A stretch of DNA of 64,000 nt from Phallusia mammillata (taxonomy: Eukaryota): positions 24,180,001 to 24,244,000 of the forward strand of contig OZ281500.1 of the NCBI GenBank assembly GCA_965637545.1, written 5' to 3'. This document shows positions 9,001-45,000 of the stretch, one piece after another (position 1 is the first letter of the stretch; every line of letters begins with the position of its first letter). Made by a program: the position numbers.

Positions 9001-12000
9001 CGATAAACTGTGAGAAGATCTCGAGATGATTTGGTGAAGTTTCTGTCGCGGAAACTGTAAACGACCACGTTCACTAAACTGGAAGAAAAATAAGATGTTG
9101 TTGTCTTTATCTGACTTTGTTCTTGTCATAGATTGTGATTTCACTGTGACGTTACAATTTATTTAATGTGTCATCACATCGCGACGTATCGTTTACAAAG
9201 ATCTATATGCCTGATGTATAGTACTTAATTACGTCACTGATGATGTCATATAAGCTGCCAATTGCATGACGCAGTTAACCACGTTTTGAGGCAGAATTAT
9301 TATTGATCAATTTATTTAAGGTTTGTTTGTCAAGTTGGTTAAGCGATTTGCTGTAATGGAAGTAAATCATAAAATAAAAGAGAATCAGAACCCGGATCAG
9401 TTCAAGTTTTCATGAGTTTACCTGTTCGACATGCTGAGGTAGAAACACAACATGAAGGGAAGTGAAGCCGTGTCGCATGTTAAGGACTTCCCGAAGAACA
9501 GAACTTGCACAACGATCAGCGGAACTGAAAGAAAGATTTGAATGTAAAGTGAATTGCCTCAAAACTCCGATCGTGAAGTAGTTCATCTTACCGATGGTGA
9601 GAGTGAAGCCGATCTGCATAAGGATCACTGTCACGAACGTGCGAAGTTCTTTTTTGTCTGTCTTCTGTCGGAGTTGGTTGGATGTCTTCAGGTTGATGTG
9701 AACCACGATGATGGTTGCGACACAGGCGAGGGTCTGTGATGACGTAACAAGGTTGTGACGCATATGACCTTGAACCTTGACTTCTAATTTTCTTAGTATT
9801 TATAAAAGTAAAATCTATTTAATTTTGACGTGCGTGACCTTAAACTTAGACCTCCAATTTTCTTAGTTATGAAAGTGAAATCTTTGATCGTTTTCCGTTT
9901 ATTTCTGTTAGTCCGTTTTATTGCATTATTAGTTAAATTGCATTTTTGGTAAGACCTTAACTTTATTCTATCATCCAAAGGTCAGTGATTTTGCAACTTG
10001 AGTTAAAGGAAAAACTACAGTTCGATAAATTATGTTTGAGAATCATTACTTGTAATAAACTCTTCACACATTACCATTATGACGTAGGGAATGACGTAGA
10101 AAACAATGAGCATAGCAACGAGAGCATTGTGGCTTCCATCTCGATTTTGTATTTTTTTCTCAGTGAAGAAAAACAGAAATATCGTGTGCTGATAAGTGTA
10201 CACCATCGAATCAGGAAACCAGGCTGAAAATCATGTTGATTTGTCACAATGAAATATCTTGTTGTTGTTTCGACGAATTTAATTTAAAATTTTTGTAATT
10301 TTGTTTTATCTGGGGGCGTGTTCAGTCAGTTTTAGGAATGCTTCTTCCTTTGAAAACAAATTAGACAATGTTTACAATTCATCTTGCCGGACAAAATATG
10401 TACATAAACATTGGCATATATTCATCGTTATGCGTACAAACTCTGTACTGCTATCTAGTGATTTCAGGTTTCATTGGGAAACTTATTTATTTTTAACATT
10501 TGATGCAGTTTCACACCTGGTACGGTGCTGGACACAACAGCCAAAGCCCAAACCACAGCCAAACCGACGTAGACGTGAAAGCCACTTCGCGTCCGGTAAG
10601 AGAGTGGCCACTTGATGGCGTACAAGCGCTGTGCACCCATAAACACTAGGTGGTACAAAGAGCTAGTGAACGTAAGAAGGAGAAAGATTCCTCCCGCGGT
10701 CGCTTGAGCTGATCCTCGCAGTAAAAGTTGACGATGATCCAATTCCATCGACGAAACGTTCATCGTCCAACTGAAGTTGTAGATTGAAACCACCAGGAGT
10801 TGGACGCCTGAAAAACACACATGGCCAAGTTCAGACGTAATGCACCAAAAGATGCAAACGGTTTAACTGATGTTGCATGGCTGCCTTTGGTGCATTACCT
10901 TTTACTAACTGTTTACTGCTTAGATCGGCCATGTAGCGTTCAAGTTTACCCACAGTAACGACTGATTCGTATAAAAATCACAGATGTATGTCTGTGAAAA
11001 TCGAACTCTTTATCGTTAGCGCATGCTGCCTACGTTAGGACATCGATAGATTGGTCTTATATATAGAGCTCAATTTTGTACTTTTCCAATAAAATCCCCA
11101 AATGTTTTTACTAGTAAGAAAACCGGCGACAGCCAAAGAGAATTTCATCTTGTCGAAACTTTGACGGAGCCCGACTTTCTTTAACACCACCATTACAAGT
11201 ACGTTGCTGAACACACAGGCCAGACCGAACAGGACGACGAAAAATACAAAAAATCCTGCTCCTGCCTTGCTGCATTCTCCGCATGCGCACACTGGTTTGT
11301 TCGCGCATGCGCTGTAGGCCTTTTTGGAGCAAAATGCGGGAAAACCACACAATTTTGAAACAAGGATGAGATGCAAACTCGGTCCAGTGGCGTTAAATCG
11401 ATTAAAATTGGTCAGAGTGTTGTTATTTTTGATGCCAAGGTTTTCTAAACCCGGCCATTCTTCCGGTATGAAGTATTTTTCCTCTAATCTGTCAGTGGTT
11501 ATCAAGTGGGGCGTTCCTACAAACATACTTAAAAAATTCGTGGCATTTATTTGTGACAAATCCATGTCAAATTTACTTGAAGTTGTATTGCCAGTTTTAT
11601 GTTGATTTCTAAAATTGAATTGAGAAGAAAAAAGGATTTAGTATGTGTTCAATTTCTTCCAAGATTTCTTGCCAACCGTAACTATTTCTAACAATTTAGC
11701 GCTGATAACATATCGTTTGTCCTATAATTTCACTTCCAATCTTTTCCACAAATAATTTACTCAACGTTTTGCCAAAACTGATTTTGCCTACAAATCATCA
11801 AATAATTACATTTCGACGTAAAAACTCAATAAATTATCGATAAAAATGCTTTTTTCCCTCGTAAAAAAATAACTTGTCATCAGGGCGCCTGATACTTCGA
11901 AACTCTGTATCCGGACAGCAACGTGTTTACAAACGCTCAACTAGTTCATGTTACTCATTGGGTCGTATGTTGTTTGTGTACGAGTGCTTGCTCTGGCGCA

Positions 12001-42000: not shown

Positions 42001-45000
42001 TTACAGATGTATGTCTGTGAAAATCGAACTTTTTACATGCTGCCTACGTAAGGACTTCGATAGATTGGTCTTATATAAAGCTCAATTTTGTCCTTTTCAA
42101 TAATATACCCAAATGTTTTTACCAGTGAGAAAATCAGCGATAGCCAAAGAGAACTTCATTTTTTCAAAACTTTGACGGAGCCCGAGTTTCTTTAACACCA
42201 CCATTACAAGTACGTTGCCGAACACACAGGCCAGACCGAGCAGGACGACGAAAAATACGAAAAATCCCGCTCCTGTCTTGCTGCATTCTGCGCATGCGCG
42301 CAGTGGTGTGTTCGCGCATGCGCTGTAGGCTTTATCGGAGCAAAATGCGGGAAAACCACACAGCTTTGAAGTTGTGAAATTTCTGAATCGATACAGCCCA
42401 GTTTTGTTGATAGTGCTTTTGAATCCACCAGAAAAGTTAAATCCTTCAGAAAAGTTATATTCATCAGAAAATTTGAATCCATTAGAAAAGTTAAATTCAT
42501 CAGTAAAGTTGCTTGTTGTGTTGATTCCAGAGCTCGTATTGTTGAGTTGATTGGATATATTGTTTAAAACGTTTTCAGCGCTGATGGCACTCACTGTTTC
42601 TTCATTGAAACTGAGTTCTGGCAAGTTAATGTCGTCATCTCCAACCCATGTATAGATTGGTTCCAATGCGTAACGTGTTTCTTCTACTCGGTCAACCATT
42701 GAAGAAGTGTGAATACCCGAATCGTGCGTATCACTTGTGTTTTGGATTGTCATTGTGAATGCAGATAATGTTGTATTTAAATGTCAAAAACTGAAATGTT
42801 ATTTTAAAATAAAGATTTTTTTTTGGCAAATTGAACACTCTTCAGCCCCAAGTTTCGATTATTTTATATTTGAATATAAAACTTCAACTGAAAAAGCTAA
42901 ATAAATAATCTTAATTGACCGATCAAAATAACAACTTTAGTAACAGATCAAAACCATCAACAGCATGGCTTAAACTGACAATCACTGTTTGCCTTTTTAA
43001 CCATAAAAGAGTGAAACCAACGGACGATAAAATTCTTGGTAAAACAGATGATGGCACATAGGCGAAAAATATATATTCCTTAACTGACTGATTTTGTTTT
43101 CGTTGCAATTTCTGTGTTAATTAGAATGCATGGGAAGCTTGTTATTAAGAGGAAAGTGATAACGTTCACTATAAAAACCTTTCGAACCTGAACACGAACA
43201 AGTTGTCATCTGCAACTTTTGCTTAGTTGTGAAATCATACGGAACCTTGCCTAACCATCCAACAATTTTGTTGGTTTGTTTCTATATTCACACTAAGATA
43301 TGCAGAAATCTAACTCACCTGTTTGCTGTTTGTGCATCAAAATAATTGCAAAGTTTTAAACGAAACTCACTATAGTAGTACGATATTATAGCATATCATG
43401 TGTTGCTTCAAATATGCATCATGATATGATTAAACTGTATTTCTATAACCAGACTTATGCAAGGTATTTGCATTGAACTTATAACAATGCTATTACTTCG
43501 GTCACGAACACAGAATTCCCGTTCAAAAATTCCAGACACTCCGAATTTGCAACGCAACAACCCTAATGTTAGGGAAGTCAGCCAGTATAGTTTATTGCAA
43601 CATATCTGACCTTTCGATTCTGTTTCAGTATTTTCAAAGTAAACCTCCCTAAAACAACACGAATTTACAAAGTTCAATTAATACAGAAAGAAAGCAGAAT
43701 CAAATGCAGGTGGTAAGGTTTATGAAAAAACTTTCGACAAATCTTATATTCATTTTGTTTGTTCATTATAAAATGGTTAAACCAGTGATGCACCGAATTT
43801 TCGGTTGGATAAAATCATTTTTATATTTTTTGATGACAACCAATTCTTGCAGACTGATGTGCTATATTGACACATATTGGATTGCTTAAGTATAGTAAAC
43901 AACAGTTAAACTGGATTCGGTTATTCCAGATCTTTGCAAAATTCGGACAAAACTCGAGGTACAAATGATTTGTTAAGTGGCAAGGCTTGAACTAATCTAG
44001 ATCTTCTCCGAACTATTTTTTTGGTAAATACGAGTCCAGATTAACCAAGGTTTATTAAAATCTCTTCCTTTTTTCCGCATTACTGCCACGCCTCCAATGC
44101 AGCGGCTCATATTCAAACACAATGCGACCTGATGAGTCATTTCAAACAGTGATGCGCCAGATTTTCGATTGACTTAGAATAATCCTAAGCAACTACTTCC
44201 TTGTTTCGGTTCGGCTCCAACTTAAGAAAAATTTTCACCGAAGTTTCCACAGACATCATATGTTGGACCATAACTTGAATTATTTTTAGTGATTTGTCTG
44301 CCTACAGGCCTATACACGTTGTAACTCACGCACAGTATCATGTCTAACTATATCTAACTGTTTTAGTTAATTGTTCTGATCAGCAGATCCTAACTTACAG
44401 CTAAGTATTACAGGAATCAATATAGCTTAACTGATTTGGACATCACAATATTGTAAATGTAGTAAGCTTTTCCTGTATTTTATCAATTATTATTTGCTTT
44501 TTTTACATACTTCGTGTATATTGTGTCACTTTTCCGCATTATGACGTAACACAATGGCAAAACATCAAGAGAACCTATTTCTTTCAAAGTTAAACAACTG
44601 TTGGTTATGGTTTTATTACGAGGTTCTCGTAAAAATTTCACGTAAACAACGATGTATTTGACTAGTTCATGTTGCTCATTAGGTGGTATGTAGTTAAAGC
44701 ATGAGCAATTGCTATGTATGGACGATGTTGTTTAGATGCGGAATAAGAAATATACTAATGAACTGAAGTGCCCTGGTTACTGTTTGAAGTGGGTGTAAAA
44801 CTCTTTGCGGGGCAAATAAATAAGTGTCTGCCGATAAACTCGCTTTAACTGAAAACACCTAATGAGTAACTTTACCGGGATTTGAACTCATGACCTGTTG
44901 CTAACTGACGACCATAATATTAAATAACAATGCTTTTGTTGTTGAGACTTTTAATCAACTCTTCAAACTTTCGACACCTTAAACCGTTGTTTCCAAACCT

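What the first reader, a model, noticed from the sequence alone, without database searches (positions are those of the whole stretch)
11112..42753. Ectodomain type and downstream spacer type are recombined combinatorially, with crossovers in the conserved Cys/TM1-TM2 block
Seen: 5' type A (V1, V2, V6) is followed by three different downstream sequences (true intron 1, alpha spacer, beta spacer). Type C is followed by true intron 1 (V4, V10) or the beta spacer (V9). V6 has the 5' half and promoter of V2 but the 3' flank of V9 (25610-25825 matches 35380-35588). Inference: unequal crossover or conversion in the ~230-bp conserved block swaps ectodomain+promoter cassettes among bodies, a germline shuffling route to receptor diversity.
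[Added by the scan's program, not by the reader: the finding's places include an assembly gap (unread letters, written N; its length is only estimated) at 33615 to 33814. Whether the letters on both sides are continuous or in frame is not known: test that first.]
Basis: partly seen in the sequence, partly recalled or inferred. Interest (0 to 1): 0.66.

Follow-up and report, generated by a model that had tools for sequence, protein, structure and literature searches.

The report
Shuffled first-exon cassettes in sea-squirt receptor genes
A tandem array of sea-squirt receptor genes carries extra copies of its first exon that have been duplicated, lost and swapped between neighbouring genes by recombination inside a short conserved stretch, a familiar way for gene families to evolve seen here in an unusual layout.

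Summary
The window holds a minus-strand array of orphan class-A GPCR genes of Phallusia mammillata or a very close relative. There are 13 first exons for 8 six-exon bodies.

- **Mosaic.** Type A (V1, V2, V6) is followed by intron 1, alpha or beta. Type C is followed by intron 1 (V4, V10) or beta (V9). V6 matches V2 upstream and V9 downstream.
- **Spacers are not free modules.** Alpha is the upstream region of the next A exon (exact 1092-bp period). Beta is the upstream region of the next D exon. So the "combinations" are different orders of cassettes: B-A-A, C', B-A-D, C-D, C.
- **Exchange points.** They map inside the block, in its Cys-coding 5' part: V2 at 12384-12388, V6 at 26010-26048, V9 at 35801-35811. 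The TM1-end/TM2 part travels with the downstream flank.
- **Age.** Cassettes are younger than the bodies they precede (2-4% against 15-17% divergence).
- **Core.** A 114-bp core is almost invariant at synonymous sites.
- **Weak tests.** Block-only PHI and AU tests are weak.
- **Open points.** Misassembly is unlikely but not excluded. Use of the orphan exons as alternative first exons is untested; V7, V8 and one relic show decay.
- **N gap.** It lies in a transposon insertion and touches no exon.

The parts
11112..11565 (-). V1, type A first exon (ATG to last exon base), followed by intron 1 and body 1
   Evidence: Intact 152-codon ORF with a GT donor. Private substitutions run through its block. 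Flank classes.
11566..12203 (-). Alpha spacer between V2 and V1; it is the upstream region of an A-type exon
   Evidence: 11110-12452 matches 12202-13544 at 94.7% with an offset of exactly 1092 bp.
12204..12657 (-). V2, type A orphan first exon, a V1-like/V3-like hybrid
   Evidence: Max-chi-square: 10 of 10 sites like V1, then 15 of 16 like V3. The switch lies between alignment columns 129 and 133 (12388..12384). 1 of 20000 shuffles reach this.
12658..13295 (-). Alpha spacer between V3 and V2
   Evidence: 95% identical to the other alpha spacers over 600 bp.
13296..13866 (-). V3, type B orphan first exon
   Evidence: Intact 191-codon ORF, donor GTTAGT. Ectodomain 83-87% identical to V7.
18573..19506 (-). 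V4, C-like first exon with three 186-bp internal repeats, followed by intron 1 and body 2
   Evidence: 18912-19284 matches 19098-19467 at 96.5%, offset 186. ORF.
23592..24180 (-). V5, type D first exon, followed by intron 1 and body 3
24181..25824 (-). Beta spacer between V6 and V5; it is the upstream region of a D-type exon
   Evidence: 25529-26073 matches 35287-35836. 24831-25222 matches 34618-35009 (80.6%). 23951-24831 matches 31701-32579 (79.0%).
25825..26278 (-). V6, type A orphan first exon with a V9-like block and 3' flank
   Evidence: 6 of 6 sites like V2, then 11 of 11 like V9. The switch lies between columns 90 and 128 (26048..26010). 1 of 20000 shuffles reach this.
26279..26916 (-). 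Alpha spacer between V7 and V6
26917..27505 (-). V7, type B orphan first exon; the ancestral ATG at 27518 is put out of frame by an 8-bp deletion
   Evidence: The ATG at 27518 opens only 23 codons. The ATG at 27505 opens 197 codons.
31460..31927 (-). V8, type D first exon next to body 4, broken
   Evidence: A 1-bp deletion in the CGFPAFC codons (about 31682), and the membrane-proximal ectodomain is missing. The ATG frame and the block frame differ.
31928..35587 (-). Beta spacer between V9 and V8, interrupted by an insertion
   Evidence: Collinear with the unit III spacer on both sides of the insertion.
32580..34617 (.). Inserted inverted duplicate of a GIY-YIG-encoding element; it contains the N gap 33615-33814
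   Evidence: Arms 99.87% identical over 779 bp. 53 bp are identical on both sides of the gap. Pfam GIY-YIG 22.8 bits against a cut-off of 22.6.
35588..36236 (-). V9, type C orphan first exon with a V6-like block
   Evidence: 7 of 9 sites like V10, then 14 of 14 like V6. The switch lies between columns 90 and 100 (35811..35801). 10 of 20000 shuffles reach this.
42123..42753 (-). V10, type C first exon, followed by intron 1 and body 5
   Evidence: 35576-37934 matches 42111-44469 at 93.3%.
42178..42291 (-). The 114-bp core of the block (end of the Cys region, TM1, start of loop 1), shown here for V10; the same columns exist in all 13 copies
   Evidence: Synonymous difference 0.04-0.08 in the core. 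It is 0.24-0.37 in the two adjoining block parts and 0.18-0.39 in exon 2.
29073..30938 (-). Body 4, exons 2 to 6, as the example of a constant body
   Evidence: Matches the Phallusia mammillata cDNA-derived protein P0003 at 96-100% in five pieces. Acceptor CAG|GC.
50217..50316 (-). Decayed orphan first exon about 1.2 kb upstream of V11
   Evidence: 83% identical to V11 exon 1 over 100 bp, with an in-frame stop and lost cysteines.

Best explanation
The locus is a tandem array of lineage-expanded, orphan class-A (rhodopsin-like) GPCR genes of an ascidian. Each gene has a first exon that encodes three things: a short, N-glycan-rich ectodomain, a Cys-rich juxtamembrane stretch, and TM1 with the start of TM2. 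Five constant exons follow.

The last 240 bp of the first exon is the only sequence shared by all cassette types, and its 114-bp core is nearly identical in all 13 copies. Misaligned homologous recombination in the germ line uses this stretch, through unequal crossover and gene conversion. The result is that whole first-exon cassettes (upstream region plus ectodomain) have been duplicated, deleted and transferred between neighbouring genes. This leaves units with one to three first exons in different orders: B-A-A, C', B-A-D, C-D, C.

Shown here:
- the cassette map;
- the switch points inside the block for V2, V6 and V9;
- the linkage of the block's 3' part to the downstream flank;
- the younger age of the cassettes relative to the bodies;
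- the suppressed synonymous divergence in the core.

Inferred:
- that the events were unequal crossovers or conversions rather than another repair route;
- that the orphan exons V2, V3, V6, V7 and V9 serve as alternative first exons spliced to exon 2 of the body downstream. I put that at about even odds.
For: Gene family and organism:
- Exon 2 hits Pfam 7tm_1, though below the family cut-off.
- The full-length relative P0001 hits 7tm_1 at 1.3e-18.
- P0003 and P0004, cDNA-derived proteins of Phallusia mammillata, match body 4 and the V11 gene at 94-100%.

Cassette map:
- 13 exon-1 copies for 8 exon-2 copies.
- Exact 1092-bp spacing V1-V2, V2-V3 and V6-V7.
- Flank classes.

Switches inside the block (824 triplets tested, 20000 shuffles each):
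- V2 from V1/V3: reached by 1 shuffle.
- V6 from V2/V9: reached by 1 shuffle.
- V6 from V1/V9: reached by 0 shuffles.
- V9 from V6/V10: reached by 10 shuffles.

Shared tracts (78 pairs, 10000 shuffles each):
- V6-V9, columns 91-316: 1 shuffle.
- V3-V11: 0 shuffles.
- V6-V10: 0 shuffles.
- V7-V11: 2 shuffles.

Linkage to flank type: in the block's 3' part, 11 of 12 informative sites fit the downstream flank type (2 of 5000 label shuffles). Only 3 of 12 fit the upstream type (1676 of 5000).

Age discordance:
- Unit I against unit III has 47 mismatches in 1196 bp (3.9%) from the B-block core to the A donor. The B ectodomain has 51 in 349 (14.6%). The bodies are 83.0% identical over 2120 bp.
- V9 against V10 upstream has 28 mismatches in 1340 bp (2.1%). 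Bodies 4 and 5 are 84.7% identical over 2328 bp.

Core: synonymous difference 0.04-0.08, against 0.24-0.37 in the adjoining block parts and 0.18-0.39 in exon 2.

Orphan exons:
- All five keep a long ORF and a GT donor in the same phase.
- The coding parts of V1, V2 and V6 have no indels, while the 500 bp upstream have three in each comparison.
- All 8 exon-2 copies keep the same acceptor.
Against: - PHI on the block is not significant for all 13 copies (2371 of 5000 permutations reach it) and modest for V1-V10 (131 of 5000).
- The AU test on columns 148-313 does not reject an A-type clade V1+V2+V6 (p = 0.134). No branch of that tree is well supported.
- Sites in the block's 5' part follow neither flank type: 1 of 8 fit the upstream type and 2 of 8 the downstream type. 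The history there is scrambled, not a set of clean single crossovers.
- GC3 of the core (0.61) is not higher than that of exon 2 (0.58). The biased-conversion signature used for fish protocadherins is therefore absent. Nucleotide-level constraint on the core remains possible.
- If the assembler could thread the blocks freely, 6 of 7560 cassette orders would show no mosaic at all.
- Against use of the orphan exons: no protein with a B- or C-type ectodomain joined to a body was found.
- V7 has lost its ancestral start frame. A decayed orphan lies upstream of V11.
- Ectodomain dN/dS is 0.5-0.9.
- Donors of the alpha-followed exons read GTTAGT.
Confidence: 0.7

Rival explanations
1. Assembly artefact. 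The assembler threaded wrongly through the near-identical blocks. The true locus is regular, for example three C-A-body units and two B-D-body units, with no mosaic.
For: - The core is identical over about 70-225 bp between many copies.
- The scaffold has an N gap whose two sides share 53 identical bases. That suggests unmerged contig ends from a short-read assembly.
- 6 of 7560 possible cassette orders remove the mosaic.
- Some inter-copy tracts are 100% identical over 150-bp windows.
Against: - V1 carries private substitutions spaced at most 33 bp apart right through the core. They tie its A-type 5' side to its intron-1 side.
- The 5'-side variant at column 133 and the 3'-side variants at columns 299 and 309 occur together in V6 and V9 and in no other of V1-V10.
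- Columns 136 and 270 occur together only in V8 and V10 among V1-V10.
- By my arithmetic each such pairing has a 1 in 45 chance under random threading. Swapping V6 with V9, or V8 with V10, leaves the type combinations unchanged.
- The V9 junction (columns 90-100) lies outside the identical core, in sequence that differs between copies.
Confidence: 0.1
2. No homologous exchange in the block. The cassettes were placed by unrelated, non-homologous duplications or insertions. Only copies with an intact first exon survived. The block is alike everywhere because of purifying selection on the protein or on an embedded nucleotide element.
For: - Block dN/dS is low, 0.09-0.21 for most pairs.
- There is no GC3 excess in the core.
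- Block-wide PHI and AU tests are weak.
- RNA folding of the core is unremarkable: z = -1.71, with 13 of 200 shuffles folding as well. This neither supports nor excludes a nucleotide-level element.
Against: - Protein-level selection cannot remove synonymous differences: core 0.04-0.08 against 0.18-0.39 elsewhere.
- The tandem period equals the block-to-block distance to the base, 1092 bp three times.
- V2 is the hybrid predicted for an unequal crossover between a B block and an A block.
- V6 and V9 are identical over the block, with divergence rising steadily into the flank.
- Repeated junctions inside a 240-bp target, in units of 1-7 kb, are unlikely without homology.
Confidence: 0.1
3. The exchange is real but inconsequential. 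The orphan first exons are by-products of unequal crossover that are never spliced to a body and are on their way to decay. On this view the shuffling adds no receptor diversity.
For: - V7 has an 8-bp deletion after its ancestral ATG.
- V8 is frameshifted.
- A decayed orphan with a stop codon lies upstream of V11.
- A-type cassettes differ as much in coding sequence (4.8-7.7%) as in non-coding sequence (4.6-6.8%).
- Ectodomain dN/dS is 0.5-0.9.
- No matching transcripts or proteins were found.
- No shared upstream 8-mer occurs across cassette types: 0 found, against a mean of 0.14 in 200 shuffles.
Against: - All five orphans keep ORFs of 152-217 codons and GT donors in the correct phase.
- Indels within coding parts are absent (A types) or in frame (18 bp in V9/V10; 3 and 36 bp in V3/V7), apart from the one 8-bp case. 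Non-coding flanks carry 1-30-bp indels.
- In unit IV the exon next to the body (V8) is broken, while the upstream V9 is intact. V9 is then the only usable first exon for body 4, and body 4 is transcribed (P0003).
Confidence: 0.35

Closest known systems
Clustered protocadherin variable exons with regional gene conversion (teleost fish; PMC1852091, abstract and passages read)
   Same: - Tandem first exons encode an ectodomain plus a transmembrane segment.
- The 5' parts are divergent and the 3' parts are homogenised at the nucleotide level, including synonymous sites.
- Paralogues are told apart only by their 5' sequence.
- The array is shaped by tandem duplication and conversion.
   Different: - Here there is no single constant region. 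Eight bodies each have one to three first exons.
- The homogenised tract is only about 114 bp and is not at the exon's very end.
- The GC3 excess reported for fugu is not seen.
- The protein is a 7TM receptor, and splicing of upstream exons to bodies is unproven.
UGT1 / GCNT2 type multiple-variable-first-exon genes (PMC1885805, abstract and passages read)
   Same: Several alternative first coding exons lie in tandem upstream of shared downstream exons. All have the same splice phase. New exons arise by tandem duplication.
   Different: - That paper reports birth-and-death evolution with little gene conversion. Here conversion-like tracts are significant.
- That paper describes the organisations it studied as vertebrate-specific.
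- Promoter-driven exon choice is documented there and untested here.
Hybrid genes from unequal homologous recombination in tandem GPCR arrays, such as the primate red/green opsin array (recalled; no paper read)
   Same: A head-to-tail array of class-A GPCR genes in which misaligned homologous exchange changes copy number and creates hybrid coding exons.
   Different: - There, whole genes are the repeat unit and hybrids differ by a few tuning residues.
- Here the unit is a first-exon cassette. Orphan first exons accumulate in front of intact genes.
Ascidian-specific expansions of class-A receptors with variable N-termini in Ciona: the LDLRR-GPCRs and the 14 'Unclassified LGR-like' receptors (PMC2396169, passages read)
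   Same: - Lineage-specific ascidian class-A receptors whose N-terminal architecture varies on a conserved 7TM part.
- One cDNA protein of this family (P0004) is auto-named 'Relaxin receptor 2'.
- Relatives carry Sushi repeats or short domain-less N-termini.
   Different: - Membership was not shown.
- P0001's 53 matches among solved structures are cannabinoid, neuropeptide Y, adrenergic and similar receptors. No relaxin or LGR receptor is among them.
- No LDL-A or LRR domain was found.
- The paper's additional files could not be opened, so its gene models were not compared.

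Membership tests
Class A (rhodopsin-like) GPCR, Pfam 7tm_1 | Match to the 7tm_1 profile across TM1-TM7 | tested here: met
   The window's exon 2 alone scores 23.8 bits, E 3.7e-05, below the 30.5 cut-off. The full-length cDNA-derived relative P0001 scores 67.9 bits, E 1.3e-18, over profile positions 1-260. 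P0003, which is body 4 at 96-100%, carries precomputed PF00001.
Class A (rhodopsin-like) GPCR, Pfam 7tm_1 | Conserved E/DRY motif after TM3 and NPxxY motif in TM7 (motif names recalled) | tested here: inconclusive
   By position, the window reads Q-R-L after TM3 and N-V-V-V-Y in TM7. The assignment of positions is by eye, not by a structural alignment.
Multiple-variable-first-exon gene (protocadherin / UGT1 type) | Two or more alternative first coding exons in tandem upstream of one set of constant exons | tested here: met
   Units I (V3, V2, V1), III (V7, V6, V5) and IV (V9, V8) have 3, 3 and 2 first exons for one exon 2 each.
Multiple-variable-first-exon gene (protocadherin / UGT1 type) | Every variable exon has a start codon, an open frame and a donor in the phase of the constant exon | tested here: met
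   12 of the 13 first exons keep an ATG-to-donor open frame, V8 being the broken one, and all 13 keep a GT donor at the homologous position. V7 uses a second ATG after an 8-bp deletion. All 8 exon-2 copies have the same acceptor.
Multiple-variable-first-exon gene (protocadherin / UGT1 type) | Each variable exon has its own promoter | not testable with these tools
   No eukaryotic promoter tool or expression data were available. No 8-mer is shared upstream of 5 or more of 8 cassette classes (0 found; mean 0.14 in 200 shuffles).
Multiple-variable-first-exon gene (protocadherin / UGT1 type) | Transcripts join each variable exon to the constant exons | tested here: inconclusive
   Protein searches with the C-type exon, exon 2 and the B-type ectodomain found no protein joining an orphan-type ectodomain to a body. 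The collection holds very few proteins of this species: 3 relatives were found.
Regionally gene-converted variable exons (as in fish protocadherins) | Nucleotide identity that includes synonymous sites in one part of the exon | tested here: met
   Core synonymous difference is 0.042 within V1-V10 and 0.066 between V1-V10 and V11-V13. Exon 2 gives 0.180 and 0.393.
Regionally gene-converted variable exons (as in fish protocadherins) | Significant shared fragments in a GENECONV-type test | tested here: met
   4 of 78 pairs stay significant after multiplying by 78. Caveat: a uniformly constrained core also lengthens runs.
Regionally gene-converted variable exons (as in fish protocadherins) | Raised GC3 in the converted region | tested here: not met
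   GC3 is 0.61 in the core, 0.55 and 0.52 in the flanking block parts, 0.58 in exon 2 and 0.44 in the ectodomains.
LGR / relaxin-receptor-like GPCRs | 7TM part closest to relaxin/LGR receptors, with an LRR or LDL-A ectodomain | tested here: not met
   None of P0001's 53 matches among solved structures is a relaxin or LGR receptor. Pfam finds no LRR or LDL-A in the exon-1 translations or in the 12 relatives scanned; five of those carry Sushi repeats.
Penelope-like retroelement (for the insertion that holds the N gap) | GIY-YIG endonuclease domain next to a reverse transcriptase | tested here: inconclusive
   GIY-YIG scores 22.8 bits against a cut-off of 22.6. The adjoining ORF 33294-33614 has no Pfam match. 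The name is a recalled resemblance.

The most novel reading that the evidence does not exclude
Ascidians have evolved their own version of the protocadherin/UGT1 design, for 7TM receptors. Many small clusters each offer one to three alternative first exons, which put different glycosylated N-termini on a shared receptor body. The cassettes are continually reshuffled between neighbouring genes. The 114-nt core that is invariant even at synonymous sites would then be more than a passive recombination target. It could be a nucleotide-level element, for example one used in exon choice or splicing, whose conservation also keeps the cassettes exchangeable.
Probability: 0.2. Interest if true: 0.7.

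Novelty: new variant of a known kind. Interest (0 to 1): 0.45.

Why it matters
If the orphan exons are used, this would be a multiple-variable-first-exon system for a G-protein-coupled receptor. The multiple-variable-first-exon paper read here (PMC1885805) calls the cluster organisations it studied vertebrate-specific.

It would also show how a short conserved coding stretch lets promoter-plus-ectodomain cassettes move between paralogous genes.

Even if they are not used, the locus is a clean natural record of unequal crossover and conversion. Switch points are resolved to 5-40 bp, which is useful for studying how tandem receptor families gain and lose N-terminal modules. Relatives of this family carry Sushi-repeat ectodomains on the same block.

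My four literature searches on this point found no description of this family's architecture.

Tried and rejected
- **PHI test, block only.** Not significant for 13 copies (2371 of 5000) and modest for V1-V10 (131 of 5000).
- **Tree and AU test, columns 148-313.** The tree is unresolved. p-AU is 0.134 for the A-type clade. The script then stopped with an error on the next clade, because V6 and V9 are identical rows there, and I did not repeat it.
- **Counting argument that the mosaic must survive any rethreading of blocks.** Wrong: 6 of 7560 orders remove it. I replaced it with the cross-core linkage argument.
- **Trans-splice or cis acceptor sites upstream of each ATG.** By eye many looked acceptor-like. 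With a fixed rule only 3 of 13 exons have one, against 692 of 5000 random 80-nt windows. There is no enrichment.
- **Shared promoter motif.** No 8-mer is common to 5 or more of 8 cassette classes.
- **RNA structure in the core.** z = -1.71, with 13 of 200 shuffles folding as well. Not compelling.
- **GC3 test for biased conversion.** No excess.
- **Synonymous rates by fixed coordinates.** Rows involving V4 were invalid because of its 3-bp deletion. I redid them on the alignment.
- **Protein searches for transcripts with orphan-type ectodomains.** None found.
- **Representative search.** It gave 123 relatives. Many, such as P0006 and P0008, are short ORFs that end close to the end of exon 1.
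- **Collections not used.** Genome contigs holds only bacteria and archaea. The phage, plasmid and E. coli collections are irrelevant. So no other haplotype, individual or species could be compared at the DNA level.
- **Spliced models.** Exon translations were searched one by one.
- **Human sequence.** The window is not taken for human.

Full report
**What the window is**

All the genes in question lie on the minus strand. Stop-to-stop ORFs and tblastn with two of the window's own exon translations show 13 copies of a first exon but only 8 copies of a second exon.

- The second exon gives a sub-threshold match to Pfam 7tm_1.
- Three proteins derived from Phallusia mammillata cDNAs are relatives.
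  - P0003 equals exons 2-6 of the fourth body at 96-100% in five pieces.
  - P0004 equals the V11 gene at 94-98%.
  - P0001 is a full-length paralogue that is not in the window. It gives the six-exon model and matches 7tm_1 at 1.3e-18.
- So the window comes from that ascidian or a very close relative. It is not taken for human.
- P0001's nearest solved structures are cannabinoid, neuropeptide Y and adrenergic receptors at E about 1e-8. This is an orphan, lineage-expanded class-A family.
- More distant relatives carry Sushi repeats in front of the same Cys-rich stretch.
- I searched exon translations one at a time and built no joined model.

**Anatomy of the first exon**

From ATG to donor, each first exon encodes three parts:
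- a short ectodomain of 72-232 residues with 3-15 N-glycosylation sequons;
- a Cys-rich stretch;
- TM1, the first loop and the start of TM2.

It ends in a split glycine codon before GT. All eight second exons begin behind the same acceptor. The last 240 bp, called the block here, is 86-100% identical among all 13 copies.

- The 600 bp upstream of the block sort the ten copies V1-V10 into four classes:
  - A: V1, V2, V6 (94-95%);
  - B: V3, V7;
  - C: V9, V10 (90%), with V4 at 80%;
  - D: V5, V8.
- The 600 bp downstream sort them differently:
  - intron 1: V1, V4, V5, V8, V10;
  - alpha: V2, V3, V7 (95%);
  - beta: V6, V9.

**What the spacers are**

- V1-V2, V2-V3 and V6-V7 are each exactly 1092 bp apart. 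11110-12452 repeats at 12202-13544 (94.7%) and at 25813-27164 (94.3%). Alpha is therefore simply the upstream region of the next A-type exon.
- Beta continues into sequence homologous between units III and IV, and then into the D-type exons V5 and V8. It is the upstream region of a D-type exon.
- The "combinations" are thus orders of cassettes in front of bodies:
  - unit I: B-A-A;
  - unit II: C';
  - unit III: B-A-D;
  - unit IV: C-D;
  - unit V: C.
- V11-V13 are single, older genes. A decayed extra first exon lies upstream of V11.

**The N gap**

- The gap sits in a 2038-bp insertion in the beta spacer of unit IV.
- The insertion is two inverted arms, 99.87% identical over 779 bp, encoding a GIY-YIG ORF.
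- The 53 bases on the two sides of the gap are identical in the same orientation. That looks like unmerged contig ends.
- The sequence on both sides of the insertion is collinear with unit III and meets at one unit-III coordinate.
- No receptor exon or frame is involved.

**Where the exchanges lie**

On a 13-row alignment of the block I ran a max-chi-square scan of 824 triplets with 20000 site shuffles each.

| Copy | Left of the switch | Right of the switch | Switch, alignment columns | Window coordinates | Shuffles reaching it |
|---|---|---|---|---|---|
| V2 | 10 of 10 sites like V1 | 15 of 16 like V3 | 129 to 133 | 12388..12384 | 1 |
| V6 | 6 of 6 like V2 | 11 of 11 like V9 | 90 to 128 | 26048..26010 | 1 |
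| V9 | 7 of 9 like V10 | 14 of 14 like V6 | 90 to 100 | 35811..35801 | 10 |

- With V1 and V9 as the parents, V6's switch is reached by 0 shuffles.
- All three switches are in the Cys-coding 5' third of the block.
- In the 3' part (end of TM1 to the exon end), 11 of 12 informative sites fit the downstream flank class (2 of 5000 label shuffles). Only 3 of 12 fit the upstream class.
- In the 5' part the sites fit neither class: 1 of 8 and 2 of 8.
- V2 is exactly the hybrid expected in the duplication product of an unequal crossover between the block of a B cassette and the block of the A cassette behind it. The 1092-bp period is that block-to-block distance. This step is inference.

**Layers of different age**

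- Between units I and III there are 47 mismatches in 1196 bp (3.9%) from the core of the B block through alpha and the A exon. The B ectodomain just upstream has 51 in 349 (14.6%). The bodies are 83.0% identical.
- Between V9 and V10, 1340 bp of upstream sequence have 28 mismatches (2.1%), with some 150-bp windows identical. The ectodomain is patchy (87, 97 and 89%). The bodies are 84.7% identical.
- V6 and V9 have no mismatch over the last 200 bp of the exon. Mismatches then rise steadily over about 290 bp of flank, on a background of 79-85% between units III and IV.
- So cassettes were exchanged after the units had duplicated. Conversion has continued, and not only in the block.

**The core**

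- The 114 bp that encode the end of the Cys region, TM1 and the start of loop 1 have a synonymous difference of 0.04-0.08.
- The two adjoining parts of the block give 0.24-0.37, and exon 2 gives 0.18-0.39.
- A GENECONV-type test finds four pairs significant after correction, including V3-V11, which lie 35 kb apart.
- GC3 in the core is not raised, and its predicted RNA fold is unremarkable.
- Repeated conversion is the simplest reading, but constraint on the nucleotides themselves is not excluded.

**Results against the reading**

- PHI on the block is not significant for 13 copies and modest for ten.
- A tree of columns 148-313 is unresolved, and the AU test does not reject an A-type clade (p = 0.134).
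- If blocks could be threaded freely, 6 of 7560 cassette orders would show no mosaic.
- Against misassembly:
  - V1's private variants chain through the core.
  - Two pairs of variants on opposite sides of the core occur only together: columns 133 with 299 and 309 in V6 and V9, and columns 136 with 270 in V8 and V10 among V1-V10.
  - The V9 junction lies outside the identical tract.

**Function**

- All five orphan exons keep long ORFs and phase-compatible donors. Coding indels are absent or in frame apart from one case.
- In unit IV the exon next to the body is broken and the orphan V9 is intact.
- Against use:
  - V7 has lost its ancestral start frame.
  - An orphan upstream of V11 has decayed.
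  - Ectodomain dN/dS is 0.5-0.9.
  - No transcript-level evidence was found.
- I rate use as alternative first exons at about even odds.

**Comparison with known systems**

- The closest analogue is the regional conversion of protocadherin variable exons in fish (PMC1852091, passages read).
- The layout resembles multiple-variable-first-exon genes (PMC1885805, passages read). Here, however, it is split into many mini-clusters and applies to a 7TM receptor.
- Ciona has ascidian-specific class-A expansions with variable N-termini (PMC2396169, passages read). Membership of this family in those groups was not shown, and that paper's additional files could not be consulted.
- Searches found no description of this architecture.

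Noticed in passing
32580-34617: An inverted duplicate of a GIY-YIG-encoding element is inserted in the V9-V8 spacer. Its arms are 99.87% identical over 779 bp. The N gap sits at its centre, and the 53 bases on each side of the gap are identical in direct orientation, which suggests unmerged contig ends.
   Followed up: yes
18912-19467: V4's ectodomain contains three tandem copies of a 186-bp (62-residue) unit, 96.5% identical. This makes it the longest ectodomain, at 232 residues with 15 sequons.
   Followed up: partly
31460-31927: V8, the first exon directly in front of body 4, has a 1-bp deletion in the first Cys motif and lacks the membrane-proximal ectodomain. Its ATG frame and block frame therefore differ. 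Body 4 is nevertheless represented by a cDNA-derived protein whose ORF starts inside exon 2.
   Followed up: partly
27505-27518: V7 has an 8-bp deletion shortly after the ATG homologous to V3's start. That ATG now opens 23 codons. A second ATG 13 nt downstream opens the 197-codon frame.
   Followed up: yes
38257-38851: Two stray 3' exons of another family member lie between V9's upstream region and body 5. The exon-5-like piece (38756-38851) is 100% identical in protein to P0001 residues 355-386. The exon-6-like piece (38257-38472) is frameshifted. No matching exons 1-4 were seen.
   Followed up: partly
50217-50316: A decayed first-exon relic lies about 1.2 kb upstream of V11. It is 83% identical to V11 over 100 bp, has an in-frame stop and has lost cysteines. 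The older genes therefore also once had an extra cassette.
   Followed up: partly
36283-37628 and 42800-44143: About 1.3 kb upstream of V9 and V10 is 97-100% identical in most 150-bp windows. That is far more alike than the exons or bodies next to it. It is either a very recent conversion or a collapse by the assembler.
   Followed up: partly
14060-14622, 28272-28617, 44470-45035: A shared intergenic segment, 69-78% identical, marks the upstream end of units I, III and V.
   Followed up: no
3874-4134: A weak exon-1-like tblastn match (29.5% over 88 residues, E 4e-4) lies far downstream of body 1. blastn with three first exons found nothing there.
   Followed up: partly
whole family: A representative-protein search with V2's exon found 123 relatives. 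Many are ORFs of 90-250 residues that end within a few residues of where exon 1 ends. The exon boundary therefore seems conserved across the family. Long members carry Sushi repeats.
   Followed up: partly
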